A program made the translations under genes and the position numbers. Shown here in pieces: positions 24,054 to 49,760 of a stretch of DNA of 64,000 bases. Origin of the DNA: Escherichia coli. GTDB taxonomy: Bacteria > Pseudomonadota > Gammaproteobacteria > Enterobacterales > Enterobacteriaceae. Below the pieces are notes generated by a model, which had not been told where the DNA came from, searched no databases, and saw only the letters and a list, made by a program, of their open reading frames with translations. The stretch's first letter is position 1; each line of letters opens with the position of its first letter. The DNA lies in NCBI RefSeq assembly GCF_024223415.1, contig NZ_CP100500.1. One strand, given 5' to 3'.

Positions 24054-24064
24054 TGAGGATTGTC

Positions 24065-25176: not shown

Positions 25177-25202
25177 AAATAATACCGTTCTCTTTAAAAA
25201 GT

Positions 25203-25235: not shown

Positions 25236-25244
25236 ACTTTGTAA

Positions 25245-25871: not shown

Positions 25872-26141
<270 letters not shown>

Positions 26142-27744: not shown

Positions 27745-27941
27745 TACCGGCTGCGACACTTTTGAATAAAAGCGTCGACATTGCGGCGCTCATAACGAAC
27801 TACTTTTGCACTGAAACGAATTGGTGCCAGGATAGCCCGATGACGATGCTTAATATTCCACTCACATAGCGTTTTCTGTGTAATACCTAACTTTTGGCAT
27901 ACTTCATCCGGGGTGAGTAAATCGTCGGGTTTCTCGCTCAT
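27741..27941 (-). CDS. xis: excisionase/AlpA-like HTH protein
   Basis: The internal ATG of ORF 27741..28139 gives a 66-aa protein, MSEKPDDLLTPDEVCQKLGITQKTLCEW.... Its ATG overlaps the helicase TGA (ATGA). Confidence 0.7.
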   Translation of the reverse strand: MSEKPDDLLTPDEVCQKLGITQKTLCEWNIKHRHRAILAPIRFSAKVVRYERRNVDAFIQKCRSRY

Positions 27942-29332: not shown

Positions 29333-29376
29333 AGTATTTTAGCCAGTAGGGCGCGGGATAATCCCGCGCAAGAATG

Positions 29377-30099: not shown

Positions 30100-30158
30100 G
30101 CTGTATTCTCCATTCAGTTAAAGACGCGCTGATAGTTACCGCTACCAGTGCGTTTTGT

Positions 30159-30335
30159 TTATTCATCCCACGGCTTGTTTGCAGCCTCCCTTGCGGCCTG
30201 CTGCGCAAAATAAATCAATTCAAAAGCTAACTGTTCTCCTTTTTCCAGCGAACTGAGAAGCCTTGCTGTTTCCAGCATGTCCGCGATATACCCGAAAATA
30301 TCTGCCTGATGTAACTGCGTGATCTTGATAGCCAT
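30159..30335 (-). CDS. hypothetical 58-aa protein
   Basis: The internal ATG at 30335 of ORF 30159..30416 is preceded by GAGG. First gene leftward from the Arc-type operators. Confidence 0.5.
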   Translation of the reverse strand: MAIKITQLHQADIFGYIADMLETARLLSSLEKGEQLAFELIYFAQQAAREAANKPWDE

Positions 30336-30374
30336 AGCGTTAACCTCGATGGAACCACTGCGGTCCATTTTAGT

Positions 30375-30413
30375 AAACCACCGTGGTTTATTGATGTCAA
30401 CACCACCGTGGTG
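30375..30413. promoter_or_regulatory. two palindromic operators sharing the core ACCACCGTGGT
   Basis: AAACCACCGTGGTTT (30375-30389) and CACCACCGTGGTG (30401-30413) lie in the 113-bp divergent intergenic region. Confidence 0.6.
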
Positions 30414-30448
30414 CATACTTTGAGAATCGAGTTTATGAGGTAGTTACT

Positions 30449-30763
30449 ATGAGTCGTGAAGATGCGCAGATGAAGATCCGTTTACCTGCGGAACTGAAAG
30501 AATTATTGGAGAATGCAGCCCGTGCTAACGGTCGTTCGTTGAATGCAGAGGTGCTTCAACGCTTAAGATCTTCATTTCCTGCAATAAATAAGCTGGAAAG
30601 CCAGAATACTCATGCGTTTTTATATCTACGACAAGCTGAAGGTATGGGGCTTGGACGCGAAGCTGAATCTTTGCTTAATGAGTGGGGCAAAAATATTGAA
30701 AAAAACACAGAACTCTTAGAAAGACTGCATGAACTCGTAGAAAATCGTTTGGGGAAAAAATAA
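30449..30763 (+). CDS. Arc/MetJ-type ribbon-helix-helix repressor with C-terminal extension
   Basis: MKIRLPAELKELLENAARANGRSLNAEVLQRL is a classic Arc-family RHH. GAGG RBS. Confidence 0.75.
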   Translation: MSREDAQMKIRLPAELKELLENAARANGRSLNAEVLQRLRSSFPAINKLESQNTHAFLYLRQAEGMGLGREAESLLNEWGKNIEKNTELLERLHELVENRLGKK

Positions 30764-30781
30764 TGTACCGTAACGAAATTG

Positions 30782-30922
30782 TTACTTAAGGTCTTTAGCT
30801 AGCCTGAATAATATTTCTGCATTTACTGAACGCATATTTTTCTTTGCTGTTTTCTTTAACTCCTCCGCTAATGCGCGGGGGATCCGTAATTTAAACTGTA
30901 AGTGCTCATCTGATTTTTTCAC
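30782..30922 (-). CDS. small Arc/Mnt-type RHH protein (46 aa)
   Basis: Not in the ORF track. The GTG at 30922 overlaps the VRR-NUC TGA (GTGA) and follows GGAGGGG. Translation: MKKSDEHLQFKLRIPRALAEELKKTAKKNMRSVNAEILFRLAKDLK. Confidence 0.65.
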   Translation of the reverse strand: MKKSDEHLQFKLRIPRALAEELKKTAKKNMRSVNAEILFRLAKDLK

Positions 30923-31188
30923 AATATCCCCTCCAGATTTTTGCTATCCAGCACCACCACGGTAAAGCCCAGTTTTCGCAGACGTTCATGTTCGCGCAAC
31001 TGGTCAGGTCGTGGTGGTTTGCCTGGCGCTTTGCATTCGACAAAGACGATGCGACCGCCGGGTAGCAGGACAATGCGATCCGGTACCGAGCGGCGACCGG
31101 GAGATACGAACTTAAAGGCCACACCGCCAGCTTTTTTCACTTCAGCGACGAGGTGCTTTTCGATAAGGCTTTCACGTTCACAGGCCAT
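30919..31188 (-). CDS. VRR-NUC domain nuclease
   Basis: 89 aa with PDRIVLLPGGRIVFVECK (D...ExK) and the downstream Q..E pattern typical of VRR-NUC. Confidence 0.8.
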   Translation of the reverse strand: MACERESLIEKHLVAEVKKAGGVAFKFVSPGRRSVPDRIVLLPGGRIVFVECKAPGKPPRPDQLREHERLRKLGFTVVVLDSKNLEGIL

Positions 31189-31399
31189 CGTCTGCCACCT
31201 TACGTTTTTCGCGTATGTTCTGCATCAGGCAAAAATCAGATCTGCGCTCACTCCATTCCTGATTGAGCGCGTTACGTGACTGGCGGTTGGCTTTGGCCCA
31301 GACCTTTGCTGCCCGATCGTACGCGCCGGACTGCTCAAGGCACAAAGCCTCCCGTGCAGTCTGGTAATAAAGTGGACTGTCCCGGTATTTAAATGACAT
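31178..31399 (-). CDS. PerC-family-like small regulator
   Basis: 73 aa. LEQSGAYDRAAKVWAKA...NQEWSERRSDFC resembles the PerC/Pch motif (A..LE..G.W.RAA..W......R.W...RR..C). From memory only. Confidence 0.4.
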   Translation of the reverse strand: MSFKYRDSPLYYQTAREALCLEQSGAYDRAAKVWAKANRQSRNALNQEWSERRSDFCLMQNIREKRKVADDGL

Positions 31400-31415
31400 A
31401 TATTTCGATTCCTGT

Positions 31416-31440
31416 AAAAAGCCCCTGACAGTGCAGGGGC
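31416..31440 (-). terminator. rho-independent terminator after the Bro-N gene
   Basis: gcccctg/caggggc stem followed by T5 on the minus strand. An identical copy lies at 35509-35535 after the AntA/KilAC gene. Confidence 0.7.
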
Positions 31441-31893
31441 GGGATTGATTTGAATTAACGAGGTAAGGCTGGTGGAATGTATTTGCCGATGCGGTCTTCT
31501 ATCGTTGGCAGAATACACATGCTGTCGTTAAAGCGATCGTGCAGTTTGTAGACCAGTTTCGAATCAGCCATTTCAAGCGCTGGCATTAACTGAGTCTGCC
31601 AGATTTCGTTGATGCGCCGGAAGTTATGACAGATCGCACGAAGATTATTAATGAACATTTCCTTCTCTGCGTCAGTGACTTCTGTTTGTGTTTTCTGAAT
31701 ACGCTTTGTGCTGCCGTTCCGGTAAAAGCGTTCCTGCGCAGCGACAGCCTCATCCACAGTCGGATAACAGCCAACGTATACGTTTTTCTCGCCGTCCCAT
31801 GCATAAGCCCGGTACGGATTGTATTTGCTCCGGTGATGGTAAATCATCTTCGGCAGACATTCCCTGTGCGGCGCCAGTATCGTGGAGGACTGC
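31416..31893. repeat. ~480-bp direct repeat, copy A (terminator plus 3' half of the Bro-N gene)
   Basis: Aligns colinearly with 35509-35987, roughly nine in ten bases identical by eye. Confidence 0.9.
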
Positions 31894-32231
31894 GGAACGG
31901 CGGTATCTTTCTCGATAAGGTCAAGCACCCAGCGACGAAATTCTTTGGCTACCGGAGTCGTTGCGAATATTGCTACCAGGTGGGCACCGCGCAGGGAGAA
32001 AACTCGCACATCTTTTTCACGTAAGCTATTGTTTATTCCGTTGAACCTCATTTTGAGGTTGATTGACATACCCGGGGTAAACTCATCTGCGTTGCGGTTG
32101 TATATCTGGGTGATTTTATCGCCGCGCGAATACCCCAGCGCAGTAGCCAGCGTTGCGGCGGTGAACCACTGCCTGCCGTTGTGTTCGGTAGTTTCGAGAA
32201 CGTGAGATTTGAATACGAGTTGGGTACTCAT
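31455..32231 (-). CDS. Bro-N domain protein with AP2-like C-terminal module
   Basis: ATG at 32231 (AAAGGA RBS). N-terminus FKSHVLETTEHNGRQWFTAATLATALGY is Bro-N. C-terminus YRAYAWDGEKNVYVGCYPTVDEAVAAQERFYRNG is AP2-like and shared with the 35547 gene. Confidence 0.75.
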   Translation of the reverse strand: MSTQLVFKSHVLETTEHNGRQWFTAATLATALGYSRGDKITQIYNRNADEFTPGMSINLKMRFNGINNSLREKDVRVFSLRGAHLVAIFATTPVAKEFRRWVLDLIEKDTAVPQSSTILAPHRECLPKMIYHHRSKYNPYRAYAWDGEKNVYVGCYPTVDEAVAAQERFYRNGSTKRIQKTQTEVTDAEKEMFINNLRAICHNFRRINEIWQTQLMPALEMADSKLVYKLHDRFNDSMCILPTIEDRIGKYIPPALPR

Positions 32232-32446
32232 AGTTTTATGTCCTTTGCAATATTTTGAATTCACCCCTTTTGAGAGGGCGGTCAGGCGCTCAAAACCGTG
32301 CAAAGTCGGCGGGCGTATTTCCCTTACGGGTATTGTATTAGCCTCACGCCCGACCATTGAATTCTCAATATCGTGGACATAAAAAATCCGCATGTCTGTC
32401 GGGTGCGGTTTCCGCTTTGCAAGGTGTTTTGAGCACCATGACGCGG

Positions 32447-32476
32447 AATATAGCCCCGTTAACGCGACATTGTCAA
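32447..32476 (-). promoter_or_regulatory. sigma-70-like promoter for the Bro-N gene
   Basis: Minus strand TTGACA, 18 nt, TATATT, about 215 nt upstream of the ATG. Confidence 0.5.
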
Positions 32477-32498
32477 ACTGAAGAATTTTACGGATAGC

Positions 32499-32533
32499 AA
32501 AAACCCCCGAACTGGTGAGGAACAGGGGTTTTT
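32499..32533. terminator. hairpin terminator downstream of the TIR-like gene; near-copy of the host acpS terminator
   Basis: aaaaacccccgaactggtgaggaacaggggttttt compared with host aaaacccccgaactggtaaggaacgggggtttt (25203-25235). Confidence 0.6.
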
Positions 32534-32591
32534 ACTTTACTACTGATTTCGCGGTACGCTGATCTCAAACAGACGAGATTATCACCAGACT

Positions 32592-32606
32592 TGTAAAGTA
32601 AGCAAT
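32592..32606. repeat. 15-bp direct repeat TGTAAAGTAAGCAAT (left copy)
   Basis: Perfect copy of 33366-33380. Lies 7 nt outside the TIR-like stop codon. Confidence 0.95.
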
Positions 32607-32613
32607 GGGCGGA

Positions 32614-33357
32614 TTAAGATGAAGCGTTCGCTATCTGAGCGTCGCTGAATGTGAAACCCGCCTGTTTAAGACGCTGGATTAAGCGGGGTACTGTCTCCCG
32701 AACATGGTCATTAAAGTTGAGATAAAGAATACCGGCGGCATCAGAAGGCTGCTCAAGGTGTTGTTTCTGCAGGATGACCACGTTACTGCGACCGAGTGAA
32801 GATAACAGCATCCCCATTTCTAAAACTACGTTTTGGCGTGCCCTGGGCTGGGCTGCTTCCTGGCCGTCTCTTTTGGCGTATCCCACATCATCGGGAGTGA
32901 GGAGAACAATGCCGAAACGCGTCGCTGTCCGTCCCTGACCAATTTCACGTTCAAGCTCTTCAATTATCGTAAGCCCGGTCCCACCGGTATTCTGCAAAAT
33001 AAAATGGTCAGGTAATCCAAGCTTATGAAGAATAAGTTCAAGCTGCTCTTTTGCTACATGATCGTGACCGTGAACGATGAAAATCTTTTTTGCTGGTTCT
33101 TGCATCATGACTGGAGCGTTACCCAGGTGTTCATTAATAATGGCTTCAACCTCAGGTTTTGCCGCTTGTGAACCCTGAATCAAAATCGTTCCGGTGTGGT
33201 AAAGCGTTATGATGGCACCATTACTTAAACGATAACAATCATGACCGGTTTTGTTTTCTTCTCCGGTAACATCAAATCCGGATTCGACTAAAAATTGACG
33301 AAAAGTATCGACAGCGTATGGGTATTTGAGTGCCATTTCATTGAGTTCCTGCATCAT
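32614..33357 (-). CDS. TIR-like domain protein (Cap12/PycTIR-type TIR_like) with TBP-fold-like N-terminal domain
   Basis: 247 aa. C-terminal KIFIVHGHD...IVLLTPDDVG...ARQNVVLEMGMLLSSLGR...PSDAAGILY matches the TIR-like family, including the conserved Glu. N-terminal NGAIITLYHTGTILIQGSQ resembles the RNase HIII N-domain. Confidence 0.7.
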   Translation of the reverse strand: MMQELNEMALKYPYAVDTFRQFLVESGFDVTGEENKTGHDCYRLSNGAIITLYHTGTILIQGSQAAKPEVEAIINEHLGNAPVMMQEPAKKIFIVHGHDHVAKEQLELILHKLGLPDHFILQNTGGTGLTIIEELEREIGQGRTATRFGIVLLTPDDVGYAKRDGQEAAQPRARQNVVLEMGMLLSSLGRSNVVILQKQHLEQPSDAAGILYLNFNDHVRETVPRLIQRLKQAGFTFSDAQIANASS

Positions 33358-33365
33358 TGTGTTCC

Positions 33366-33380
33366 TGTAAAGTAAGCAAT
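33366..33380. repeat. 15-bp direct repeat TGTAAAGTAAGCAAT (right copy)
   Basis: Perfect copy of 32592-32606. Lies 8 nt outside the TIR-like start codon. Confidence 0.95.
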
Positions 33381-33410
33381 AGTTAACAAAGTTGCAACGA
33401 CAACGATCAC

Positions 33411-35477
33411 CTAATCTTTTCTGTAACGGTACGCCTCGAATCCTCCGGCGTTTAGTGGAATGCTCGTGGCCCAGTCAGGAACGGTTGCCAGTAACTGGCT
33501 GAGATGTTCTGCTGAGTAATCGGGTGAGTCAGGGGCCTCACTTATAATTTCATCGTGTACCGTCAGCACAATGCTGTAACCGGCATCTTCGATAAGCGGC
33601 ATGTTTCCGGCCAGAACGTCGCGGGCGGCCGCCTGGGTGACGTTCTCCACCAGCTTTCCGCCGTAGGTTTTGAGTCGTTGCCATTTACGCGAATAAGAGT
33701 TAACACCCATATAGGTGATATCCCCTTTTTCGATAACCGGAGACGGGTAGCATACAGCGCGTCCGGATGGTAGCTGTATGCGCAGCCACGCGCCATCGCG
33801 GCGGATTTTAAGATAACCGCAATACAATGTTTTTTGCGGTGTGGCGATTGCAGTGCGGACGGTGCGCTCCAGTTCGTACCAGAAATCGCAGGTCGCCGGG
33901 TGCGCCCTGCGCCACAGGCGCTTGAGCGAGTCACATGCGATGAATACACGCTCGGACAGGCCAAAGGTCGACTTACGTTTAACCGATTCGTCGTACCAGC
34001 TTTTCGCCTCGCGGATAACATCGCGGGGAATGTTTGGCAGTGCGGCGTTCGCCAGCTCGTCGAGATCGAGACCGTAAACCAGAGCAAAAGTGATGAAAGC
34101 CGATACACCACCTCCATAACCCAGACCGAGTTCCATGACTTTACCGATCTGACGCATGTGTTTATCAACATCATCTGGTGCAATATCGAAAGCTTTTGCA
34201 TACGCCAGTTTATATAAGTCCGGACCCGTTCCGGCGTCGTACTCTCTGAATGCATTCAGTTTCCATTCTTCTCCCGCCAGCCATGCCAGCATACGGCCTT
34301 CAATGTTCGACAAGTCACTTACCACCAGTTTTTTGCCTGTTGGCGCGATAATGCAGCCACGTAACGCTGAACTGGTTAGTTCCATGATATTGTCAAACAG
34401 CAGGTCTGCACATCCGGCTTTCAGTGCTTCGATGCCTTCGTCTATTTGTTCCTGTTTTAGTGAAGGGCGGGGAAGGTTCTGGGGCTGGAATAGCCGTCCG
34501 GCCCAACGACCGGTACGTGACGCCCCGCAGAACTGTAGCGTACCGCGTAAGCGCCCGTCGTGGCTTACGCCTTTCATCAGTGCCTTGTATTTACTGGTGC
34601 TGGTAGTACTGGCCTGCAGGCGGATAGCCAGCAGTTCTTTCACGGCAGATGGTAAATTGGGGTCGGCAATACGACGTTCCAGAGTACTGCGTTGCATGTC
34701 TGGTAGCTCCACACCGTAGGATTCAACAATGTGCTTAATCAACGCGTCCCGTTGTGTGGCTGCCTGCACTTCGCCATCAGTCATTTCCTGTGTACGCTTT
34801 GCCAGGCGCTTTTGCTCCTGGTCTACCGCTTCGATCGCAGCGCGCGCGAGTTGAATGTCCATGCAGACGCCCCGGTCGTTGATCTGCTGATCACGATGCC
34901 AGAGTGCCAGTTCTGTCCCCTGATAATTCCACTTCGGCAGACGTTTATAGACTTCGCGCATTGCCTCGATATCCAGTCCGGCGTAAGCAACAAAGCGCCG
35001 CCATTCTTCCGGGTGGGTTTTGCTGGTGGCCCGGCGCAGTTTGCTGTTTTTCGGGCGTGGTTTGCACAGTAGCTGAATTAGTGACTTGCCTTCTTTATCC
35101 TTCGCTTTGTCCTGCGGGACGCCCAGCACTTCGCAAAGAGCGCCCAGCGCCCCCGGAAGACCATGCGCCAGCGCCTGCACCATTGTGTCGCGCCAGCGTT
35201 CAGTAGCTGGTGACATGTCTGGCATACAATGACGAAGTATCGTGCGGTCAAAGTGCGAATTGTGCGCCCAAACCTCCACATCCGGGTTTTTGAGTGCGAG
35301 ACGTAATTCCGGGGGGATTTTTTCGCCTGCGGTCAGGTCCCACACCTGCACGGGATCGTTATTGATGGCCCAGGCAAAAAGCATAATTTCAGCGCCTTCT
35401 GCATATGCGTGGGTACCGTTTTTTATCGGTATTTCAGAGAAGGTTTCAAGATCGAGCCAGAGAATGTTTGCAGGCAA
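33411..35477 (-). CDS. family A DNA polymerase with 3'-5' exonuclease domain
   Basis: 688 aa. Exo motifs [22 protein letters not shown]. Pol motifs DLSNIEGR (A), [16 protein letters not shown] (B), VHDEII (C). Confidence 0.9.
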
Positions 35478-35508
35478 AACAGGACCCTCCGTAAATTAAA
35501 CGGCTACA

Positions 35509-35987
35509 AAAAGCCCCTGACAGTGCAGGGGCGGGATTGATTTGAATTAACGAGGTAAGGCTGGTGGAATGTATCTGCCGATGCGGTCTTCTATGGTCGG
35601 CAGAATGCACATGCTGTCGCTGAAGCGGTCATGCAACTGGTAAACCAGTTTAGAATCCATTTTTTCGAGAGCAGGCATTAACTGCGCCCGCCAGATTTCG
35701 TTGATGCGCCGGAAGTTATGACAGACGGCGCGGAGATTGTTGATGAACATTTCCTTCTCTGCGTCAGTGACTTCTGTCTGTGTTTTCTGAATACGCTTTG
35801 TGCTGCCATTCCGATAGAAGCGTTCCTGAGCAGCAACAGCCTCATCCACGGTTGGATAGCACCCTACGTAAACGCTCTTCTCTCCGTTCCATGCGTAGGC
35901 TCTGTACGGGTTGTATTTGCTCCGGTGATGGTAAACCATCTTCGGCAGACACTCCCTGTGTGGCGCCAGTATCGTGGAGGATTGCTG
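35509..35987. repeat. ~480-bp direct repeat, copy B (terminator plus 3' half of the AntA/KilAC gene)
   Basis: Colinear with 31416-31893. Includes an identical terminator hairpin at 35509-35535. Confidence 0.9.
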
Positions 35988-36308
35988 GTGCAGTTTGCGT
36001 TCGCACTCGATGAAGTATCGGCGGATCTGGCGGCCTTTTTCGTTGCGCTCCACCATCGCCAGTTCTTTGGCCGTGTCGAGGGTGAGGTGGTAGTCCTTAC
36101 AAAGAACATTTTTACGCTTTCCAGTTTTGGAAAACGTTACGATATAATCCTGATTTTCAACGAATTCATAGTCTGCAATTCGTGATGTAATCCACGCTGC
36201 AAACACTTTCCCTACCCCAAGGAATGCGTGCAGATCGCGAGCATTGCAGAGCAGGGTGGTTTCGTTGGCGATAGCGCCGTTGAAAACGGGGATGAGTTGA
36301 GTTGCCAT
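35547..36308 (-). CDS. AntA/KilAC-type antirepressor-like protein with AP2-like C-terminal module
   Basis: ATG at 36308 after GAGGT. N-terminus NARDLHAFLGVGKVFAAWITSRI...LTLDTAKELAMVERNEKGRQIRRYFIECE is ANT/KilAC-like. The C-terminal ~150 aa are shared with the Bro-N protein. Confidence 0.7.
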   Translation of the reverse strand: MATQLIPVFNGAIANETTLLCNARDLHAFLGVGKVFAAWITSRIADYEFVENQDYIVTFSKTGKRKNVLCKDYHLTLDTAKELAMVERNEKGRQIRRYFIECERKLHQQSSTILAPHRECLPKMVYHHRSKYNPYRAYAWNGEKSVYVGCYPTVDEAVAAQERFYRNGSTKRIQKTQTEVTDAEKEMFINNLRAVCHNFRRINEIWRAQLMPALEKMDSKLVYQLHDRFSDSMCILPTIEDRIGRYIPPALPR

Positions 36309-36470
36309 CACAGTTACCTCTAACGGTGAAATTCACCGCCACCACTGAGTTGCAAATCTCATATGGGTGGCGAACTGACGAGGTTTGCAATACCGGCGTT
36401 AGAGGAAACCGGCGCGCCGAAGCGCCCCCGCCAGCCCGCCATAATGCGAACGTGGCAAAGCTTGCGACAA

Positions 36471-36492
36471 TAAAAAAGACGCTGGCGCGTCT
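36471..36492 (-). terminator. rho-independent terminator inside the noncoding island
   Basis: agacgc/gcgtct stem followed by T6 on the minus strand. Confidence 0.6.
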
Positions 36493-36651
36493 GGTGTCGC
36501 CCCTAACAATTCCGGGTTGCAAATCCCGATCTCCATTTGGGAGATTCGGTGAGCATAAACCGGAAGGGGGCGATGAGTCAATATCGGGGTAGCAGGGCGA
36601 CTGGGTGCTAACCAGAACAATACAGGTAGCTCCGGGCATATTCCCCTTTGC

Positions 36652-43687: not shown

Positions 43688-44386
43688 ATGCTGACAGCAA
43701 TCAACAACGAAAAAATTGTCATCGCAAGGGACGCGCAGAAACCGGGAATTTTCGCCTGCCCGGAATGTGGTGAAGTTGTCACCCTGCGGAAAGGTTCGGT
43801 GAAAGTTCACCATTTCGCCCATCGCAGCACCACATCCTGCGGTTACGGGAAAGGCGAATCTGAGTTGCACATGGATTTGAAAATGCAGGTCTATGACGCG
43901 TTGAACGCGCATCGTGAGGTGGAATATGTTGCGATGGAGGTCGCAGTCGGTGATGTTCGTCCCGATGTGCTGGCGATTATTCGGGGTCAGAAGGTTGCTT
44001 TTGAGATTCAGGTTAGTTCGCTGAGTATTGAAGACCTCTATCGCCGCACGGTTGCGTACGCAGCTCAGGACATTGCGATGATCTGGATCCTGCACTGGCC
44101 TGAAGGTACTGCACTGGACCGGCTTTATCACCCTGCATCATGGGAGCGATGGTTACATACTTGCGGAATGGCAACTCTGTACTTCTGGGCGGGCGATGGC
44201 TGGGTCAGGCCAGTGCGTCTGGGAAACCGACAACATGGATTACAAAGAGCACCTCGTGCCCATCTGGTTGATGATTTCGAACCAAAGCGAACAGGCGGGT
44301 GGATTAAAGGTGATTTTCTGATACCTGCTCGCTTTATCTGGAATCGTGTGCGACGGCAAAAACGTAGAGGTCAGAGCTATGCGTAA
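43688..44386 (+). CDS. CoiA-like PD-(D/E)XK nuclease family protein
   Basis: ATG at 43688 after AGGGGG. CPECG...HFAH...C, then GESELH...E...RPDV...FEIQVS...W pattern as in the competence protein CoiA family. Confidence 0.6.
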   Translation: MLTAINNEKIVIARDAQKPGIFACPECGEVVTLRKGSVKVHHFAHRSTTSCGYGKGESELHMDLKMQVYDALNAHREVEYVAMEVAVGDVRPDVLAIIRGQKVAFEIQVSSLSIEDLYRRTVAYAAQDIAMIWILHWPEGTALDRLYHPASWERWLHTCGMATLYFWAGDGWVRPVRLGNRQHGLQRAPRAHLVDDFEPKRTGGWIKGDFLIPARFIWNRVRRQKRRGQSYA

Positions 44387-44813
44387 TATTCAACAGGTTT
44401 TAGAGCGCTGGGGTGGCTGGGCTGCCAATAGCAACACCACAGTGAGCTGGGCTCCAATAGCGGCGGGATTTAAAGGGCTGGTAGTCAGCAGCCTGCCTGG
44501 CAGGCTGAGTTGCTGCGACGACGATGGCCTGATTATCGATGCTTGCGTCTGTCGGCTGCAGCAGGTCCGTAAGCCTGAGGAACTGGACGTCATTATGCTG
44601 TACTACGTCTACGGGTTAAGCAAACGTGAGATAGGACGGCGGCGTCGATGTTCTGAAGGATTTATCCGCCAGCAGTTGCAGGTAGCTGAGGGATTCATTG
44701 AGGGGTGTCTCTGCATGCTGGGTGTGAGCCTTCAGATGGATCCTGAGGTCGAAATTCAAAGGGATGAAAAAAGTATTAGTGCGCTACGCAAAAACTGCGC
44801 TACGCTGGTATGA
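44379..44813 (+). CDS. Q: late-gene antiterminator Q
   Basis: MRNIQQVLERWGGWAANS...AAGFKGL...CCDDDGLIID matches the recalled Q family of 21/933W-type lambdoid phages. Confidence 0.85.
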   Translation: MRNIQQVLERWGGWAANSNTTVSWAPIAAGFKGLVVSSLPGRLSCCDDDGLIIDACVCRLQQVRKPEELDVIMLYYVYGLSKREIGRRRRCSEGFIRQQLQVAEGFIEGCLCMLGVSLQMDPEVEIQRDEKSISALRKNCATLV

Positions 44814-45187: not shown

Positions 45188-45403
45188 ATGAAATCAATGG
45201 ACAAAATCTCAACTGGCATTGCCTACGGAACATCCGCTGGTAGTGCGGGATACTGGTTTTTACAGTGGTTGGATCAGGTCAGTCCGTCACAGTGGGCTGC
45301 TATTGGTGTGCTGGGGAGTCTGGCACTGGGCTTTCTGACTTATCTGACGAATCTGTACTTCAAGATAAAAGAGGACCGTCGCAAGGCGGCGCGGGGAGAG
45401 TAA
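45188..45403 (+). CDS. S: class II pinholin (phage 21 S-type), dual-start motif
   Basis: [45 protein letters not shown]... matches recalled S21 (Met1/Met4 starts, two TM segments). Confidence 0.9.
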
Positions 45404-45407
45404 TTCA

Positions 45408-46343
45408 ATGGAACATAATAATGAAAAATCCAGAGAGCACTCTGGAAACAGCAAACATTATTCCATTGCTCATTCATTCGGCGGCTTTCGTGATGTAGTC
45501 GGACAGGGTGCTGAGAGAGAACAGGAGAGTAATACAATGACTCAAAACCATGAACTGGTTGTTAAAGGAACCCGAAATTTTGAGAATAAAATTGCGGTGA
45601 TTTTAACCCTGCGTGACAAAAAGCGTTTTGCCTGTGAGATATTTGACTTACACATCAACCTTGAACGACAGGAAGGCGCCACTCTGGAGTTTTATGAGTC
45701 AGAGGCAATAAAACGGGCAAAGACATTGTTCCGGGATGTTGCTGCAGGGTTATGTGAAGGGGACGAGCTGTCGCCGGAAAAGCGCCCCATAATTTTACAG
45801 GCGCACAATGTGTGGATAACCTACAAAGGAAAGCTACCGGGAAGAATTACTGGTTCTCTGAAGATGCCGCCGTCAACACTGCGGTCAGAAAAAGAGGCGT
45901 CTTGTCTGCAGTCTGAGTACTCCATTACGGTTAAAAGTGCCGGAGAGGAAGGAAATAAACGTTATTTTATTGCGTCTGCACCTGATAAAGATCAGGAATG
46001 GGAGTGTAACCGGCCATCCTTTGTTGTATACGGAGATGGCGGGAAAATAACCATCTCAGAAAATGGGAAATTAACACCGCCATCGCACCAGCATAGTGAG
46101 GCGCTCATTGAATTTGCCATTGATTACCTGAAGAACAATAAAAAGCAGGGGCTGATGAAGCGCATTGGTCGTTGCATGGGATATCTGCAGGTAGCAGCTG
46201 AGATTGAAATGATGGCCAGTGGTGCTGACAATGATGCAGTTGTGCTGGAGGCTCTTCTGCGTGATTTTGATAATACGCCCTTTAAGAAAGCACCTGTTGA
46301 CTGGATGCAGCCGGGGATGACTTATCTGAAAGGGCGTATATAA
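45408..46343 (+). CDS. hypothetical protein inserted in the lysis cassette
   Basis: ORF of 311 aa. An alternative ATG at 45537 with an AGGAGA RBS gives 268 aa. No recognisable motif. Confidence 0.6.
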   Translation: MEHNNEKSREHSGNSKHYSIAHSFGGFRDVVGQGAEREQESNTMTQNHELVVKGTRNFENKIAVILTLRDKKRFACEIFDLHINLERQEGATLEFYESEAIKRAKTLFRDVAAGLCEGDELSPEKRPIILQAHNVWITYKGKLPGRITGSLKMPPSTLRSEKEASCLQSEYSITVKSAGEEGNKRYFIASAPDKDQEWECNRPSFVVYGDGGKITISENGKLTPPSHQHSEALIEFAIDYLKNNKKQGLMKRIGRCMGYLQVAAEIEMMASGADNDAVVLEALLRDFDNTPFKKAPVDWMQPGMTYLKGRI

Positions 46344-46352
46344 GGTGGCTCG

Positions 46353-46667
46353 TTATCTGTTGCTGGATAATCGACTGAAGATGCGTTCTTTTTGTGTTTT
46401 TGCGTAATGATTGTCCCACTCACAATCAAGGTAGCTTAATTCTTCATTCAACCAGTTATTTATATTGGTCTTAATACGCATAAGCATGGGCTGTGTTAAT
46501 GCTCTGGCGATAATGCCGAGAGTCACAGGTGTGAGATGTCCATACGGCTCAGCCTGAATGGATTTTACTGCATCGTGTTCTTGTGGGAGGAGTAAGAGGC
46601 ACTCTGATTTTACCCGCTCATTTATGGCTTGCAGGCATAAATCATAATTATGTTGATCGTTATGCAT
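46353..46667 (-). CDS. hypothetical 104-aa protein (possibly YdfR/DUF826-like)
   Basis: Convergent with the preceding gene and antisense to late transcription. Its position between holin and lysozyme recalls ydfR in the Qin prophage. Weak recall only. Confidence 0.5.
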   Translation of the reverse strand: MHNDQHNYDLCLQAINERVKSECLLLLPQEHDAVKSIQAEPYGHLTPVTLGIIARALTQPMLMRIKTNINNWLNEELSYLDCEWDNHYAKTQKERIFSRLSSNR

Positions 46668-46795
46668 GGTTAATCCTCTACTGAAATTGTCAGATATATT
46701 TCAGCCATCAGGAAAAACGCCAGTGTCCTACCGCTGGCGGGCTGAAGATTTAACATATCCAGGGATTCGGAACCGATAAATCCTGATAAATATCC

Positions 46796-47329
46796 ATGAA
46801 CACCAAAATCAAATATGGCCTGTCGGCTGCCGTTCTGGCACTGATTGCCGTCGGTGCGCCTGCGCCTGATATTCTCGACCAGTTTCTGGATGAAAAAGAA
46901 GGTAACCACACAACGGCATACCGCGATGGTTCCGGTATATGGACCATCTGTCGTGGTGCCACAATGGTGGATGGTAAGCCCGTCATACCGGGAATGAAGC
47001 TGTCGAAGGAAAAATGCGTTCAGGTTAATGCCATTGAGCGTGATAGGGCGCTGGCATGGGTGGAGCGCAATATTAAAGTACCTCTGACCGAAGCACAGAA
47101 AGCGGGTATTGCGTCATTCTGTCCCTATAACATTGGCCCCGGTAAGTGTTTCCCGTCGACGTTTTATAAGCGGCTTAATGCCGGTGATCGTAAAGGTGCC
47201 TGTGAGTCGATTCGCTGGTGGATTAAGGACGGTGGGCGTGATTGCCGCACACGTTCAAATAACTGCTACGGACAGGTTATTCGTCGTGACCAGGAAGCAG
47301 CACTTGTGTGCTGGGATATCGACAGATGA
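46796..47329 (+). CDS. R: SAR endolysin (T4-lysozyme-type, phage 21 R-like)
   Basis: N-terminal signal-anchor-release segment GLSAAVLALIAVGA followed by the E-x8-D-x5-T catalytic triad (EGNHTTAYRDGSGIWT). Confidence 0.9.
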   Translation: MNTKIKYGLSAAVLALIAVGAPAPDILDQFLDEKEGNHTTAYRDGSGIWTICRGATMVDGKPVIPGMKLSKEKCVQVNAIERDRALAWVERNIKVPLTEAQKAGIASFCPYNIGPGKCFPSTFYKRLNAGDRKGACESIRWWIKDGGRDCRTRSNNCYGQVIRRDQEAALVCWDIDR

Positions 47330-47334
47330 GCAGA
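47262..47334. repeat. R 3' end / Rz start segment, copy 1
   Basis: About 70 bp that recur, diverged, at 47819-47889. Confidence 0.8.
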
Positions 47335-47421
47335 ATATTTTGCTGAAAAATGACGTTGGCCAACGCGGACGGATAACACGATATTCGACATAAATGAATT
47401 TAAATAGTGAATAAAAGCAGA

Positions 47422-47456
47422 AACCCCGATTGTTGGTCGCAATCGGGGTTTTGTGT
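47422..47456. terminator. strong hairpin terminator inside the R-Rz insertion
   Basis: aaccccgattg/caatcggggtt stem followed by a T-rich tail. Confidence 0.65.
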
Positions 47457-47514
47457 TTCTGGCAGTAAGTTATGGGAGGCTGCCTTGATTAATTTTAGCG
47501 GAGGAGACTGGATT

Positions 47515-47652
47515 GTGGAAGCTCTGAAATTGCTCGAAAGAAGTCCGGTTCTGAGAAGAATGTTTTATATAGCTCTTATAGTTATCGGAGCATTCGCCGT
47601 TGCGAAATCACTTCCGGGAATAGCTGAAATCATAAAGGCGCTGAATGCATAA
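47515..47652 (+). CDS. 45-aa single-TM protein
   Basis: GTG after GGAGGAG. VEALKLLERSPVLRRMFYIALIVIGAFAVAKSLPGIAEIIKALNA. Part of track ORF 47407..47652. Confidence 0.45.
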   Translation: MEALKLLERSPVLRRMFYIALIVIGAFAVAKSLPGIAEIIKALNA

Positions 47653-47818
47653 AGAATACCTGGCTGAGGCTGACAAACAGGTCTCTGAATTGAAAGCTCC
47701 GGTAACCGATGACATCAGCGGAGCGGTGGCTTTTGCCATTAAGTGGGTGGCAGTCGGCGTTGCTATATCACCGGTACTGTATGGGCTGGCAAAGCTGGTT
47801 ATTGCGTTGAAATCATAA
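47645..47818 (+). CDS. 57-aa single-TM protein
   Basis: Not in the ORF track. Its ATG overlaps the upstream stop (ATGCATAA). MHKEYLAEADKQVSELKAPVTDDISGAVAFAIKWVAVGVAISPVLYGLAKLVIALKS. Confidence 0.45.
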   Translation: MHKEYLAEADKQVSELKAPVTDDISGAVAFAIKWVAVGVAISPVLYGLAKLVIALKS

Positions 47819-47889
47819 CTGTTACGGCCAGGTTATTCGTCGTGACCAGGAAAGTGCATTAGCCTGTTGGGGGATAGATCAGTGAGCAG
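47819..47889. repeat. relic R 3' end fused to the intact Rz start, copy 2
   Basis: ctgttacggccaggttattcgtcgtgaccaggaa... parallels 47262-47334. Confidence 0.8.
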
Positions 47890-48349
47890 AGTCGCCGCGA
47901 TTATTTATGCTCTGGTTATCTGCATCATCGTCTGCCTGTCGTGGGCGGTCAATCATTACCGTGATAACGCCATCGCCTACAAAGAACAGCGTGATAAAAA
48001 AGTCAGTGAGCTGAAGCAGGCGACCGCCACCATTACTGACATGCAGCAACGCCAGCGTGCTGCTGATGTACTCGATGCTAAATACACGAAGGAGTTGGCT
48101 GATGCGAAAGCTGAAAATGATGCTCTTCGGCGCAAGCTTGATAATGGTGGTCGGGTGCTCGTCAAAGGAAAATGCTCTGTGCCATCCTCAGCCGAAACCT
48201 CCAGCGCCTCCGGCATGGGCAATGATGCCACCGTCGAACTCTCTCCAGTTGCTGGACGAAACGTTCTCGGTATCCGGGACGGAATCATCAGAGACCAGAC
48301 AGCACTGAGAACGCTTCAGGAATATATCAGGACGCAATGCCTTCGATGA
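47882..48349 (+). CDS. Rz: i-spanin Rz
   Basis: GTG at 47882. [39 protein letters not shown]... closely matches recalled lambda Rz. Confidence 0.9.
48102..48308 (+). CDS. Rz1: o-spanin Rz1 (embedded, +1 frame)
   Basis: [19 protein letters not shown] lipobox followed by a proline-rich region, nested in Rz. Confidence 0.85.
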
Positions 48350-48523
48350 TAGCGATAATTTTACTGATCATCCTTCACATCTGGCTCTGTAGACAGGGTG
48401 GTGATCACTTCTGGAGTGAATCCAGATTAAACATCTCATTGCTGATGCTTGAAGTTGAGCATCTGGCGCGCGGTAAGGGGCTGCGTTGAAATAAGAGCCA
48501 GTCATTAAAAATACCTGGATTTA

Positions 48524-48546
48524 GCCTCGCATTCGCGGGGCTTTTT
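48524..48546 (+). terminator. terminator downstream of Rz
   Basis: gcctcgc/gcggggc stem followed by ttttt. Confidence 0.55.
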
Positions 48547-48550
48547 ATTG

Positions 48551-48852
48551 CCATTACAAAAGCCACTCCCTACAGAGTGGCTTTGATAATGGCTTATACC
48601 CTACACGGGATAACTTAACTGATATCCCTTTTAACGGATAAAGGTATTCAAGCCTGACACATCATGCGCTGTATCGTCGCCGTATTCCCGTATTAACAGA
48701 GACCGTAGCCCGACGGGGAACTCCTTCTGCGAGAGTGTGCGGGAATAATCAAAAACGATGCACACCGGGTTTTTACCGCGCTAATGATTCGCGGGTTTGT
48801 CCCTCATGCTCGCCAGTCCTGTGCGAGGGTGGAAGAAACAGGGCATGTATTC
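48551..48852. repeat. ~300-bp direct repeat, copy 1
   Basis: 48551-48775 matches 50338-50561 with about six mismatches by eye. Weaker similarity continues to 48852 / 50638. The repeat begins with the hairpin agccactc/gagtggct. Confidence 0.95.
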
Positions 48853-48899
48853 AGGAGCGTGCGACCGTGGTCGCACGGTATCTTTGTCAGGAGGTTTTG

Positions 48900-49760
48900 A
48901 TGAAAGAGTTGCAAAAAATTAATTCAATAATGGAAAGGTTAAGTGCTCTTGAGCGTAAGCTGGACGATTGTGGAAAGCTGTGTGTTGAAAAGCAAAATGA
49001 GCTTTACCGGGAATTTTTTACAATCGTAAGTGAGCTGATGCCAATTGTTAATAACTGCCTGATGACATCCAGATTTTTTAATGTCGATGCTACTACATCC
49101 AGAAAATTTTCTGTGAAAATTCAAGAAAGAGTTTCTGGTAGTGTGACAAGAGAGATGGCTGAACAGTTGGTGGCAATGAGCAATAAAACAAAAAGAAAAA
49201 AGGCATTGCTTGTAACAGCAAATCAGCTTTCAGGGCGCGTTGACTTTCAGGTCAGACAGGGTGGGCGTGTACTGGTAAATGATGCGTTCGTTGGACGTAG
49301 CTTTAGTCCTTACTCGATAAAATATGATGTTGATGCAGATGATCAGGATATCAGCATTTCCTGGAAATCTGAGACAGCAGGGATTGTATTAACAGCAGAG
49401 TTGTTGAGTGATGATAAAAATGATGTCCAGCATCATTTGGACGAAAAGAATCATATTTCTGAAATTTGTATGAAGCCACGCAGCGGAATGACTTTATTGT
49501 CACGCACTCTTGCTGCTGGCTTTTCTGCACCGGAAAAACGTGTGCTTCTGGTAGTGCCTGAAGATGCAGATATTCGACCACTGAATGGCTGTGATGTTAT
49601 TAGTGCAAAAACATTGCATACCCGCGTCATTCCTGTACCGGATGTGGTCATTATTGATGATGTTGAGAAATGCAAGTCTGTTTCCTCAACTGCCACAATC
49701 AAGCGAATTTTACGTTGTAGCACGTCGGCTGTTGTATTCCGGAAGCAGTTACATAACTAA
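48900..49760 (+). CDS. hypothetical 286-aa protein (N-terminal coiled coil; C-terminal degenerate P-loop-like region)
   Basis: ATG at 48900 after AGGAGG. AT-rich. PRSGMTLLSRTLA...RVLLVVPEDAD...DVVIIDDVEK resembles Walker A (Lys replaced by Met) and Walker B spacing. Inference only. Confidence 0.6.
   Translation: MKELQKINSIMERLSALERKLDDCGKLCVEKQNELYREFFTIVSELMPIVNNCLMTSRFFNVDATTSRKFSVKIQERVSGSVTREMAEQLVAMSNKTKRKKALLVTANQLSGRVDFQVRQGGRVLVNDAFVGRSFSPYSIKYDVDADDQDISISWKSETAGIVLTAELLSDDKNDVQHHLDEKNHISEICMKPRSGMTLLSRTLAAGFSAPEKRVLLVVPEDADIRPLNGCDVISAKTLHTRVIPVPDVVIIDDVEKCKSVSSTATIKRILRCSTSAVVFRKQLHN

What the first reader, a model, noticed from the sequence alone, without database searches (positions are those of the whole stretch)
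47262..47889. Second insertion at the R/Rz junction: duplicated junction sequence, truncated Rz start, and two overlapping mini-membrane-protein genes
The last ~70 bp of R, together with the Rz start, occur twice. At 47262-47334 an intact R end is followed by ATGAGCAGA..., which encodes only MSRIFC before a stop. At 47819-47889 a relic R 3' end (...[12 protein letters not shown]-like) is fused to the intact Rz start (GTG 47882). The ~480 bp between them hold three elements. There is a strong hairpin terminator (47422-47456). There is a 45-aa single-TM ORF (47515..47652) with a GGAGGAG RBS. There is a 57-aa single-TM ORF (47645..47818) coupled through an ATGCATAA overlap. This looks like cassette capture by recombination between R-Rz junctions of two different phages. 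A terminator placed between R and Rz also raises the question of how the spanins are expressed.
Basis: seen in the sequence. Interest (0 to 1): 0.5.

Follow-up and report, generated by a model that had tools for sequence, protein, structure and literature searches.

The report
Mini-membrane-gene cassette between R and Rz
A 556-bp mosaic insert carrying two tiny, conserved membrane-protein genes sits in the overlapping endolysin/spanin junction of an E. coli lambdoid prophage; it is one variant of a common, uncharacterised type of insert, so it is real but fairly ordinary.

Summary
The 3' end of R plus the first bases of Rz occur twice (47259-47334 and 47815-47890; 76 nt, 78% identical). They flank a 556-bp insert that phage Perceval lacks. 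The insert holds a strong, covarying terminator hairpin (47420-47452) and two overlapping small genes.

Both genes appear to be real. ORF2 (57 aa) matches phrog_1115 and has relatives in 1593 of 5426 complete E. coli genomes; 88 of 90 loci place them between R and Rz. ORF1 is rare. It travels with the hairpin and a fixed ribosome-binding region. It follows endolysin genes of four Pfam families, or lies among tail genes. In both genes pN/pS is about 0.3 in frame and 0.8-2.6 out of frame.

This was not one capture event. The leader and hairpin are shared by hundreds of lambdoid phages, and the modules have separate histories. The duplicated R end keeps Rz's native ribosome-binding site.

The terminator is not a puzzle. 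The prophage encodes Q, and plaque-forming phages carry the same hairpin.

No sense-strand promoter-like site was found, so late co-expression with the lysis genes is inferred. Function is unknown; my best guess is a late-acting membrane accessory that tunes lysis. ORF1 probably starts at TTG 47485 (55 aa).

The parts
44346..44813 (+). Q-type late antiterminator of the prophage. It would allow read-through of the hairpin.
   Evidence: PF06530 Phage_antitermQ, E 2.5e-50
45188..45403 (+). P21-type class II holin (pinholin-type), the first gene of the lysis operon
   Evidence: PF04971 Phage_holin_2_1, E 1.1e-35
46796..47329 (+). R, an endolysin with a weakly hydrophobic, Gly/Ala-rich N-terminus (SAR-type by inspection)
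   Evidence: PF00959 E 7e-24; phrog_7 endolysin. It is 100% identical to the Perceval endolysin up to 47296.
47259..47334 (.). Left copy of the junction repeat: the functional R 3' end plus the first bases of Rz
   Evidence: the repeat finder family D1. The crossover with Perceval-type R lies inside 47259-47296.
47326..47346 (+). MSRIFC stub, the remnant of the Rz start overlapping the R stop. Probably not a gene.
   Evidence: Read. The ATG is absent in other cassette-bearing loci, which have TAA at this position.
47330..47411 (+). Conserved non-coding leader of R-Rz cassettes
   Evidence: 76-87% identical to L002-L007. The piece 47329-47384 also occurs downstream of a 60-aa lipoprotein gene in GH108 cassettes L015 and L016. 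GC falls to 41-43% here.
47420..47452 (.). Bidirectional intrinsic-terminator-like hairpin. It marks the left edge of the portable ORF1 unit.
   Evidence: z = -5.2; 5 of 13 pairs with compensatory changes. It travels with ORF1 into unrelated contexts.
47474..47514 (+). Portable translation-initiation region: SD GGGAGG, TTG 47485, then (M)INFSGGDWIV, which contains the second SD GGAGGAG
   Evidence: This is the most conserved stretch of alignment A4. Distant relatives start MNF(S/N)xG(E/D)WIV from ATG. Its first five codons are shared with the unrelated IDFSKL gene family.
47485..47652 (+). ORF1, a small membrane protein of 55 aa from TTG 47485. The conserved core of 45 aa runs from GTG 47515.
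   Evidence: 8 clusters at 62-98% identity and 12 representative clusters. pN/pS is 0.31 in frame and 0.96 and 1.59 in shifted frames. Hydrophobic segment has KD 2.0-2.6 and the flanks give an N-in prediction. AlphaFold helix 11-44, pLDDT 86.
47645..47818 (+). ORF2, a 57-aa small membrane protein translationally coupled to ORF1 through ATGCATAA
   Evidence: phrog_1115 E 1e-26. 90 clusters from E. coli, Salmonella and a few other sources. Relatives in 1593 of 5426 E. coli genomes. 88 of 90 loci lie between R and Rz. pN/pS is 0.28 in frame and 0.82 and 2.60 in shifted frames. AlphaFold predicts a single helix 2-56, pLDDT 83.
47815..47890 (.). Right copy of the junction repeat. The relic R 3' end (47817-47885) carries the native Rz ribosome-binding site (GGGGGA 47869-47874) and start.
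   Evidence: It is nearly identical to Perceval's native R/Rz junction. The relic is also present after the ORF2 homologue in L003.
47882..48349 (+). Rz i-spanin, with an embedded Rz1 o-spanin frame (about 48102-48308, lipobox MVVGC)
   Evidence: PF03245 E 8e-29; phrog_13 E 3e-72. The Rz1 frame appears in the ORF listing output.

Best explanation
This is a mosaic accessory-gene cassette lodged in the overlapping R/Rz junction of a P21-type (pinholin plus SAR-type endolysin) lysis operon in an E. coli lambdoid prophage.

SHOWN
- Relative to phages in which the R stop overlaps the Rz start, 556 bp have been inserted.
- Because the two genes overlap, and the Rz ribosome-binding site lies inside R, the last ~70 bp of R are present on both sides. 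The left copy completes R. The right copy is a relic that keeps Rz's native initiation region.
- The insert has three modules with separate histories:
  (i) a leader plus a covarying bidirectional terminator hairpin, common to R-Rz cassettes of many lambdoid and Stx phages;
  (ii) a portable unit of hairpin, fixed translation-initiation region and ORF1;
  (iii) ORF2, a member of a common prophage family (phrog_1115).
- Both proteins are predicted as single long helices. Each has one hydrophobic segment near the C-terminus and a very short tail after it. Both show purifying selection.

INFERRED
- No sense-strand promoter-like site was found, and a terminator lies upstream. The pair is therefore made only when Q-modified polymerase from pR' reads through, that is, late and together with holin, endolysin and spanins.
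- ORF2 is translated by coupling to ORF1.

INFERRED, WEAKER (about 0.3)
- They act in the cytoplasmic membrane as dispensable modulators of the holin/endolysin step (lysis timing).

The near-identical 38-nt blocks flanking the insert should also allow it to be lost or transferred by homologous recombination.
For: Insertion and duplication.

Module histories, from blastn of 47150-48000 against 31 loci:
- leader and hairpin are shared with L002-L007;
- 47411-47651 is shared with loci behind GH19 (L012) and GH108 (L015, L016) endolysins and with baseplate/tail loci (L013, L019, L023), while a shorter stretch covering the TIR and start of ORF1 (47492-47567) matches a second PF00959-type cassette (L025-L030); an ORF1+ORF2 pair also follows an M15 endolysin (L116-L118);
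- 47671-47849 is shared with L003.

Hairpin.

Coding evidence:
- PHROG match;
- homologues;
- pN/pS 0.31 and 0.28 in frame against 0.8-2.6 in shifted frames.

Position bias: ORF2 relatives lie between R and Rz in 88 of 90 loci. ORF1 directly follows an endolysin in 5 of about 9 distinct contexts.

Coupling: the ORF1 stop overlaps a downstream start in almost every locus.

Expression:
- no plus-strand promoter-like site in 46300-48700;
- Q and holin are present.

Foreign composition: GC is 41-43% in the insert against 50-52% in the flanks.

Membrane character.

Precedents for small membrane proteins needed in SAR-endolysin lysis: Mu gp25 (PMC9239132) and LambdaSo Lcc6 (bioRxiv 10.1101/2024.01.23.576932).
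Against: - There is no functional evidence of any kind.
- Neither ORF matches Pfam, NCBIfam or PADLOC.
- The cassette is dispensable. Perceval has no insert, and from general knowledge neither do lambda and phage 21.
- Both families also occur outside lysis cassettes. ORF1 occurs among baseplate/tail genes and at prophage ends. ORF2 paralogues follow a Salmonella tailspike gene. This fits a generic moron better than a lysis factor.
- Both families were found only in temperate phages and prophages.
- Their layout (C-terminal hydrophobic segment) is the reverse of gp25, Lcc6 and HK97 gp15.
- The promoter scan is a simple sigma-70 consensus and could miss a weak or non-canonical promoter.
- The pN/pS values come from few, non-independent pairs.
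Confidence: 0.6

Rival explanations
1. It is a lysogenic-conversion or superinfection-exclusion moron. The two small inner-membrane proteins would protect the lysogen or the infected cell, for example by blocking DNA entry of incoming phages as HK97 gp15 does. Their position after the endolysin would only reflect a permissive insertion site.
For: - Both families also sit at classic moron sites: within or after tail genes and at prophage ends.
- L031 carries an ORF1-like gene just downstream of two short ORFs that follow a 217-aa ORF and that I took, unverified, to be tail-assembly chaperones; the role of the downstream ORF was not determined. If that reading is right, this is the site HK97 gp15 occupies.
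- Presence and absence are patchy, composition is foreign, and the families are restricted to temperate phages.
- Neighbouring morons such as Ivy and LprI lysozyme inhibitors lie nearby in some loci.
Against: - No promoter-like site lies between the hairpin and the genes, and a terminator lies directly upstream. Expression in an uninduced lysogen is therefore not expected.
- There is no sequence similarity to HK97 gp15 (E >= 0.84), and the layout is opposite.
- 88 of 90 ORF2-family loci lie in the R-Rz gap.
Confidence: 0.25
2. It is a non-functional recombination scar. The ORFs would be fortuitous or decaying remnants carried along because recombination in the flanking R and Rz homology spreads the segment.
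For: - The relic R end, the MSRIFC stub and the leader clearly are scars.
- ORF start sites and N-termini vary between loci.
- Truncated partner ORFs exist in L010 and L017.
- PGAP leaves ORF1 unannotated in the two complete E. coli genomes listed with near-full-length ORF1 matches (H73, H74).
Against: - Third-position-biased variation and pN/pS of about 0.3 occur only in the proposed frames.
- ORF1 is kept intact at 53-98% protein identity in at least nine different genomic contexts, with an invariant SD and start.
- The ORF2 core has 14 invariant columns across 16 diverse sequences.
Confidence: 0.07
3. It is a type I toxin-antitoxin-like module. ORF1 would be a small hydrophobic toxin. An antisense RNA of about 70 nt would start near 47485 on the minus strand and end at the bidirectional hairpin, repressing ORF1's initiation region. 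This would explain why the hairpin always lies at a fixed distance upstream of ORF1.
For: - A minus-strand promoter-like site lies at 47519-47492 (TCCACA-16-TAAAAT), and the hairpin scores as a terminator on the minus strand with a good T-run.
- The promoter hexamers fall in the most conserved block of the ORF1 unit.
- Hairpin and ORF1 move together.
Against: - The promoter-like site is no better than chance expectation (2 found against 3.9 expected).
- It is destroyed in L012 by a 130-nt insertion and degraded in L025, although ORF1 stays intact there.
- No promoter for the 'toxin' mRNA was found.
- No Rfam family matches. The only weak hit, BSnc120, scores 23.5 bits against a gathering threshold of 114.
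- The conserved block is equally explained by the SD, the start codon and N-terminal coding.
Confidence: 0.06

Closest known systems
Morons of lambdoid phages (Juhala et al. 2000 concept, as cited in PMC4104026). The best-studied example is the HK97 gp15 moron, described from my own recall as a superinfection-exclusion protein.
   Same: - Extra DNA lies between genes that are adjacent in related phages.
- Base composition differs from the flanks.
- It encodes a very small membrane protein.
- It sits inside a Q-dependent late operon.
- An ORF1-like gene in L031 may occupy the same inter-gene site as gp15 (tail-gene identities there were not verified).
   Different: - A classical moron carries its own promoter upstream and terminator downstream, as annotated for HK97 gp15. 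Here the terminator is upstream and no promoter-like site was found.
- There is no sequence similarity to gp15.
- gp15 has an N-terminal TMD, whereas these proteins have a C-terminal hydrophobic segment.
Mu gp25 'releasin' (DUF2730) and Shewanella LambdaSo Lcc6
   Same: They are small single-TMD proteins of phages with SAR endolysins. They act at the cytoplasmic membrane in the holin/endolysin step and are encoded near the endolysin (gp25) or required with a pinholin (Lcc6) (PMC9239132; bioRxiv 10.1101/2024.01.23.576932).
   Different: - Neither ORF gave any Pfam match, DUF2730 included.
- gp25 (99 aa) and Lcc6 (65 aa) have N-terminal TMDs and cytoplasmic C-domains.
- Both are essential for lysis in their phages, whereas this cassette is absent from many close relatives.
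- Lcc6 is encoded far from the lysis genes.
Other R-Rz junction cassettes of Stx and lambdoid phages (for example the E. coli O104:H4 prophage L005, O157:H7 FRIK944 L033, vB_EcoS-569R3, PhiR12_2)
   Same: - The insertion point, leader and hairpin are the same.
- The first gene uses the same initiation region.
- ORF2-family genes lie immediately before, or one gene before, Rz.
   Different: - Those cassettes carry other first genes (the IDFSKL...NWKF family) and extra tiny genes (a 43-aa MSDKLI family and ...IRWW peptides).
- Most lack the relic R end.
- The ORF1+ORF2 combination occurs in no complete E. coli genome of the collection. It was found only in two draft assemblies at 98% identity.
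PHROG families 1115 / 4493 / 3246 (unknown function)
   Same: ORF2 residues 11-57 match phrog_1115 over profile positions 21-67 of 67, E 1e-26.
   Different: The N-terminal 14-20 residues are specific to this lineage. The family has no assigned function.

Membership tests
Moron (lambdoid accessory insertion) | Inserted between genes that are adjacent in related phages | tested here: met
   In Perceval R overlaps Rz directly. The window matches it up to 47296 and again from 47815.
Moron (lambdoid accessory insertion) | Base composition differs from the flanking phage genes | tested here: met
   GC is 0.41-0.43 over 47300-47675 against 0.50-0.52 in R and Rz.
Moron (lambdoid accessory insertion) | Own promoter upstream and own terminator downstream, allowing expression from the repressed prophage | tested here: not met
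   No plus-strand sigma-70-like site occurs in 46300-48700, and the only strong terminator of the insert lies upstream of the genes. The scan is a simple consensus, so a weak promoter cannot be excluded.
phrog_1115 (ORF2) | Significant match to the family profile | tested here: met
   E 1.1e-26, 93 bits, residues 11-57. 90 homologous clusters.
Holin / antiholin | Match to a holin family, or the holin hallmarks of TMD(s) plus a charged, hydrophilic C-terminal cytoplasmic tail | tested here: not met
   There are no Pfam or PHROG holin hits. The C-terminal tails after the hydrophobic segment are 8 aa and 4 aa, each with a single basic residue. The operon already has a PF04971 holin.
Mu releasin (DUF2730) | [quoted passage not shown] | tested here: not met
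   Neither ORF matched any Pfam family, DUF2730 included, at E <= 1. The hydrophobic segment is C-terminal. Family definition is from PMC9239132.
LambdaSo Lcc6-like lysis factor | Sequence similarity to Lcc6 (65 aa, TMD at residues 5-22) | not tested
The layout differs, since Lcc6 has an N-terminal TMD (bioRxiv 10.1101/2024.01.23.576932).
HK97 gp15-type superinfection-exclusion protein | Sequence similarity to gp15 | tested here: not met
   BLASTP of ORF1 and ORF2 against gp15 gives E >= 0.84.
Spanin (i-, o- or u-spanin) | An N-terminal TMD with a long periplasmic domain, or a lipobox | tested here: not met
   Neither ORF matches PF03245 or any spanin PHROG. Neither has a lipobox. Only 4-8 residues lie beyond the hydrophobic segment. 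Intact Rz and Rz1 follow.
Type I toxin-antitoxin | Small hydrophobic toxin, a promoter for the toxin mRNA, and a conserved antisense or divergent sRNA gene | tested here: inconclusive
   The hydrophobic peptide is present. A minus-strand promoter-like site and terminator exist, but they are not conserved in L012 and L025. No toxin promoter was found and there is no Rfam match.

The most novel reading that the evidence does not exclude
The unit of hairpin, fixed initiation region, ORF1 and a translationally coupled partner may be a previously unrecognised, mobile class of lysis-accessory module. It would encode tail-anchored mini-proteins that act on the holin/endolysin step, setting lysis timing or endolysin release. 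It would move between phages independently of endolysin type: it was found after PF00959 (two different cassettes), GH19, GH108 and Peptidase_M15_4 endolysins. The many other tiny one-helix genes in R-Rz gaps would be functional alternatives of the same kind.
Probability: 0.15. Interest if true: 0.65.

Novelty: new member of a known kind. Interest (0 to 1): 0.35.

Why it matters
The endolysin-spanin junction of enterobacterial temperate phages turns out to be a busy exchange site for very small membrane-protein genes. About 29% of complete E. coli genomes carry an ORF2-family gene there, and none of these genes has a known function.

Small single-helix proteins have recently proved essential for lysis in phage Mu and LambdaSo. 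These cassettes are therefore an obvious, testable pool of further lysis regulators, or of exclusion factors.

The locus also illustrates a general rule. An insertion into overlapping genes has to duplicate the junction so that both genes stay expressed.

For annotation, ORF1 was unannotated in the two complete E. coli genomes listed with near-full-length ORF1 matches, and its start codon is called inconsistently elsewhere.

Tried and rejected
- Rfam. The gathering search of the whole window and the E-value search of 46300-48700 found no family for the hairpin or leader. The only hit was a sub-threshold BSnc120 match.
- Protein families. Pfam, NCBIfam and PADLOC gave nothing for ORF1 or ORF2. 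PHROGs gave nothing for ORF1.
- Phage genomes. tblastn of ORF1 against 50,697 phage genomes found no match.
- Genome-contig scan with the ORF1 profile. 44 pattern matches were found, but none was confirmed.
- Prophage sRNAs. The anti-sRNAs of Tree et al. lie 3' of pR'/stx, and the Pas sRNAs lie between the esterase and holin genes. Neither is at R-Rz.
- The survey of Stx phage lysis cassettes (PMC8136144) does not mention the small genes in the passages retrieved.
- ORF1 family versus the IDFSKL first-gene family. hhalign probability is 1.4%, so they share only the initiation region and five codons.
- HK97 gp15 shows no similarity.
- AlphaFold models show only single helices. I did not run fold searches, because a lone helix gives meaningless matches.
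- The 81-aa ORF from GTG 47407, which some pipelines annotate. I rejected it as a start because it runs through the terminator hairpin.
- An ORF2-Rz similarity (DKQVSELK versus DKKVSELK; E 0.002 in a 7-sequence database). I judged it probably coincidental.
Full report
SETTING. The window is E. coli chromosome. The lepA-era region is 100% identical to several E. coli genomes. It carries a lambdoid prophage with a P21-type lysis operon. The components are Q antiterminator 44346-44813 (PF06530), class II holin 45188-45403 (PF04971), endolysin R 46796-47329 (PF00959), and Rz 47882-48349 (PF03245) with an embedded Rz1 frame.

OBSERVATION.
- The only repeat family in 46700-48500 is 47259-47334 / 47815-47890, 76 nt at 78% identity.
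- The left copy ends an intact R. ATG 47326 overlaps the R stop and reads MSRIFC-stop.
- The right copy (47817-47885) still encodes a complete R C-terminus, [22 protein letters not shown]-stop. Its TGA overlaps the Rz start GTG 47882.
- The hairpin 47420-47452 has a 14-bp stem and scores as a terminator on both strands. It folds at -25.5 kcal/mol, z = -5.2. Five of 13 pairs change compensatorily among 16 variants.
- ORF1 (47515-47652) and ORF2 (47645-47818) are present, with the ATGCATAA overlap.

IT IS AN INSERTION, AND WHY THE JUNCTION IS DOUBLED. In phage Perceval R and Rz overlap directly. Perceval is 100% identical to the window from 47150 to 47296, then matches again from 47815 to 48000 at 90%. 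The same 38 Perceval bases align to both copies. The window's R is therefore a recombinant whose crossover lies inside the conserved 38-nt block. The right-hand copy is essentially Perceval's native R/Rz junction. The R stop overlaps the Rz start, and the Rz Shine-Dalgarno (GGGGGA, 47869-47874) lies inside R. An insertion that keeps both genes working must therefore carry the R 3' end twice. I infer from this that the duplication is functional rather than mere scar. The two near-identical 38-nt blocks should also allow the 556 bp to be lost or transferred by homologous recombination (inference).

NOT ONE EVENT BUT A MOSAIC. I compared 47150-48000 by blastn with 31 related loci.
(i) Leader and hairpin. 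R's end, the leader and the hairpin (to about 47460 or 47499) are shared at 76-87% identity with all other cassette-bearing phages examined, including 569R3, E7-1N7, 2012C-4221, the O104:H4 prophage, PhiR12_2 and phiSTEC1589. The same segment is hit in hundreds of phage records and thousands of E. coli genomes. Those phages have TAA instead of TGA at the R stop, so the 'MSRIFC' ATG is peculiar to this allele. Only about 8 nt are actually shared with the Rz start.
(ii) The ORF1 unit. 47411-47651 (hairpin, initiation region, ORF1) is shared with loci of quite different context, described below.
(iii) ORF2 and the relic. 47671-47849 (ORF2 core plus relic R end) is 92.7% identical to E. coli E7-1N7 (L003). 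The right junction therefore predates the present arrangement.
The exact ORF1+ORF2 combination is in none of 5426 complete E. coli genomes. It occurs in two draft assemblies at 98% identity. GC drops to 41-43% across leader and ORF1, against 50-52% in R and Rz.

ORF2.
- It matches phrog_1115 (E 1e-26), phrog_4493 and phrog_3246, all of unknown function.
- It has 90 homologous clusters, nearly all from E. coli and Salmonella.
- Related DNA is present in 1593 of 5426 complete E. coli genomes, usually annotated 'hypothetical protein'.
- Of 90 loci with the conserved 43-residue core, 88 lie between an R homologue and an Rz homologue.
- The core has 14 invariant columns, while the N-terminus varies.
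- Variation is concentrated at third codon positions. Pooled pN/pS is 0.28 in frame and 0.82 and 2.60 in the shifted frames.
- Members also occur after a Peptidase_M15_4 endolysin, paired with ORF1 (L116-L118), and as tandem paralogues after a Salmonella tailspike gene (L119).

ORF1.
- It is rare. There are 8 clusters at 62-98% identity and 12 clusters in the 1.84-billion-protein representative library. It covers at least 80% of the query in only 29 complete E. coli genomes, and the two such genomes listed have no annotation there.
- pN/pS is 0.31 in frame and 0.96 and 1.59 out of frame.
- It travels with the hairpin and a nearly invariant block, GTGATTAATTTTAGCGGAGGAGACTGGATTGTG.
- Its contexts are varied:
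  - after this PF00959 endolysin;
  - after a second PF00959-type cassette (L025-L030);
  - after a GH19 endolysin (L012);
  - after GH108 endolysins (L015, L016);
  - after an M15 endolysin (L116-L118);
  - between baseplate genes (L013, L017-L024, L032);
  - at prophage ends after tail-fibre genes (L010, L011);
  - among putative tail genes, upstream of an ORF of undetermined role (L031).
- In almost every locus the ORF1 stop overlaps the start of a following ORF (ATGGATAG, ATGGATAA or ATGCATAA). The partner differs: an ORF2-family gene, a 54-aa one-helix protein, a 41-aa '...IRWW' peptide, a 95-aa soluble protein or a 60-aa lipoprotein.

START OF ORF1. Distant relatives begin MNF(S/N)xG(E/D)WIV from an ATG. 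Near relatives have GTG, and the window has TTG 47485, at the equivalent position behind a GGAGG-type SD. The 55-aa form is therefore probably the real product here. The short form from GTG 47515 remains possible. L016 has a frameshift and L012 has a whole extra gene between the two starts, yet both keep the 45-aa core and its GGAGGAG. The first five codons and the initiation region are shared with the unrelated first gene (IDFSKL...NWKF family) of common Stx-phage cassettes. Beyond that, profile comparison gives no support for homology (probability 1.4%). The block thus behaves as a portable initiation region and crossover point.

PROTEIN CHARACTER. Each protein has one hydrophobic stretch (19-residue Kyte-Doolittle mean about 2.0) close to the C-terminus, leaving tails of 8 and 4 residues. 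For ORF1 the basic residues lie on the N-terminal side, which predicts N-in. AlphaFold predicts single long helices with pLDDT 86 and 83. No Pfam, NCBIfam or PADLOC family matches.

EXPRESSION (INFERRED). No plus-strand promoter-like site was found in 46300-48700. Only about 25-45 nt separate the hairpin from the SD in any locus. The genes should therefore be transcribed from pR' by Q-modified polymerase, which ignores intrinsic terminators; that is established lambdoid biology, and Q is present. Isolated phages recorded with K-12 or E. coli C as host, such as PhiR12_2, have the same hairpin between R and Rz. In the repressed prophage the hairpin would block stray read-through.

FUNCTION (WEAKEST STEP). 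Arguments for a lysis-related accessory role:
- both families have a strong positional tie to the gene after the endolysin, across four endolysin Pfam families;
- they are co-transcribed and translationally coupled with the lysis genes;
- there are recent precedents of small membrane proteins needed with SAR endolysins, namely Mu gp25 (PMC9239132) and LambdaSo Lcc6 (bioRxiv 10.1101/2024.01.23.576932).
Arguments against:
- the cassette is dispensable;
- both families also sit in tail clusters and at prophage ends, the classic positions of conversion or exclusion morons such as HK97 gp15;
- their layout is the reverse of gp25, Lcc6 and gp15, and there is no sequence similarity to gp15.
I put the lysis-tuning reading at about 0.3, an exclusion or conversion role at about 0.25, a pure scar at about 0.07 and a type I toxin/antisense-RNA module at about 0.06. 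For the last, a minus-strand promoter-like site at 47519-47492 and the bidirectional terminator would give an RNA of about 70 nt. That site is lost in L012 and L025, where ORF1 is intact.

VERDICT. The locus is one variant of a widespread, uncharacterised class of tiny-gene cassettes at the endolysin/spanin junction. It is a new member of a known kind (lambdoid mosaic accessory insertion) and of moderate interest, mainly as a pointer to a large pool of untested small membrane proteins next to lysis genes.

Noticed in passing
window 45408-46667: The S-R gap also holds an insertion. It comprises a 311-aa DUF1327 / phrog_1085 protein (45408-46343, +) and a 104-aa phrog_1853 ORF on the minus strand (46353-46667). 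Other phages carry YdfR or DUF1327 genes at this position.
   Followed up: partly
window 48337-48489: A 50-aa ORF with an N-terminal hydrophobic segment overlaps the Rz stop. It matches phrog_11822 (E 9e-38) and is annotated or called in other loci (L005, L008). A terminator follows at 48523-48542.
   Followed up: partly
window 47329-47384; L015 4368-4423; L016 3762-3792: The first ~55 nt of the R-Rz leader recur at 82-94% identity downstream of a 60-aa lipoprotein gene in GH108-endolysin cassettes, on the other side of the ORF1 unit. No explanation was found.
   Followed up: partly
window 47412-47519, minus strand: A promoter-like site (TCCACA-16-TAAAAT, 47519-47492) together with the minus-strand reading of the hairpin terminator would give an antisense RNA of about 70 nt across the ORF1 initiation region. 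The site is not conserved in L012 or L025.
   Followed up: partly
L002, L003, L005, L012, L025, L031 (R-Rz or equivalent gaps): Tiny one-helix ORFs ending in ...(I/V)RWW stop exactly at the start of the next gene; where I read the DNA (L012) the end is CGCTGGTGGTGA. Protein P0100 is a chimera of the ORF1 N-half with an ...IRWW C-end.
   Followed up: partly
window 47654-47695 compared with 47978-48022: The lineage-specific N-terminus of ORF2 (EYLAEADKQVSELKAPVTD) resembles Rz residues 33-53 ([22 protein letters not shown]). BLASTP gives E 0.002 in a 7-sequence database, and I counted about 53% nucleotide identity by eye. It could be coincidence or an old Rz fragment.
   Followed up: no
L015 4583-5005; L016 3977-4399; L032 5446-6192: Lysozyme-inhibitor genes lie within 2 kb of ORF1 units: Ivy (PF08816) and an LprI family protein. 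This suggests clustering of accessory genes.
   Followed up: no
L015 4174-4356; L016 3568-3750; L116 3172-3354: A 60-aa lipoprotein (lipobox LAGC) with no Pfam match follows ORF1, or ORF1 plus an ORF2-family gene, in holin_8/holin_3_7 lysis cassettes. No Rz-type gene was called in the DNA held for these loci.
   Followed up: partly
window 17957-36545: Rfam gathering-level hits elsewhere in the window: AsrC (17957-18788), rncO (21571-21785), ohsC (25198-25274), sRNA-Xcc1 (32272-32355), C4 antisense RNA (36363-36446) and isrK (36472-36545).
   Followed up: no
window 48735-49760: A 341-aa ORF downstream of the lysis operon has no significant Pfam or PADLOC match.
   Followed up: no
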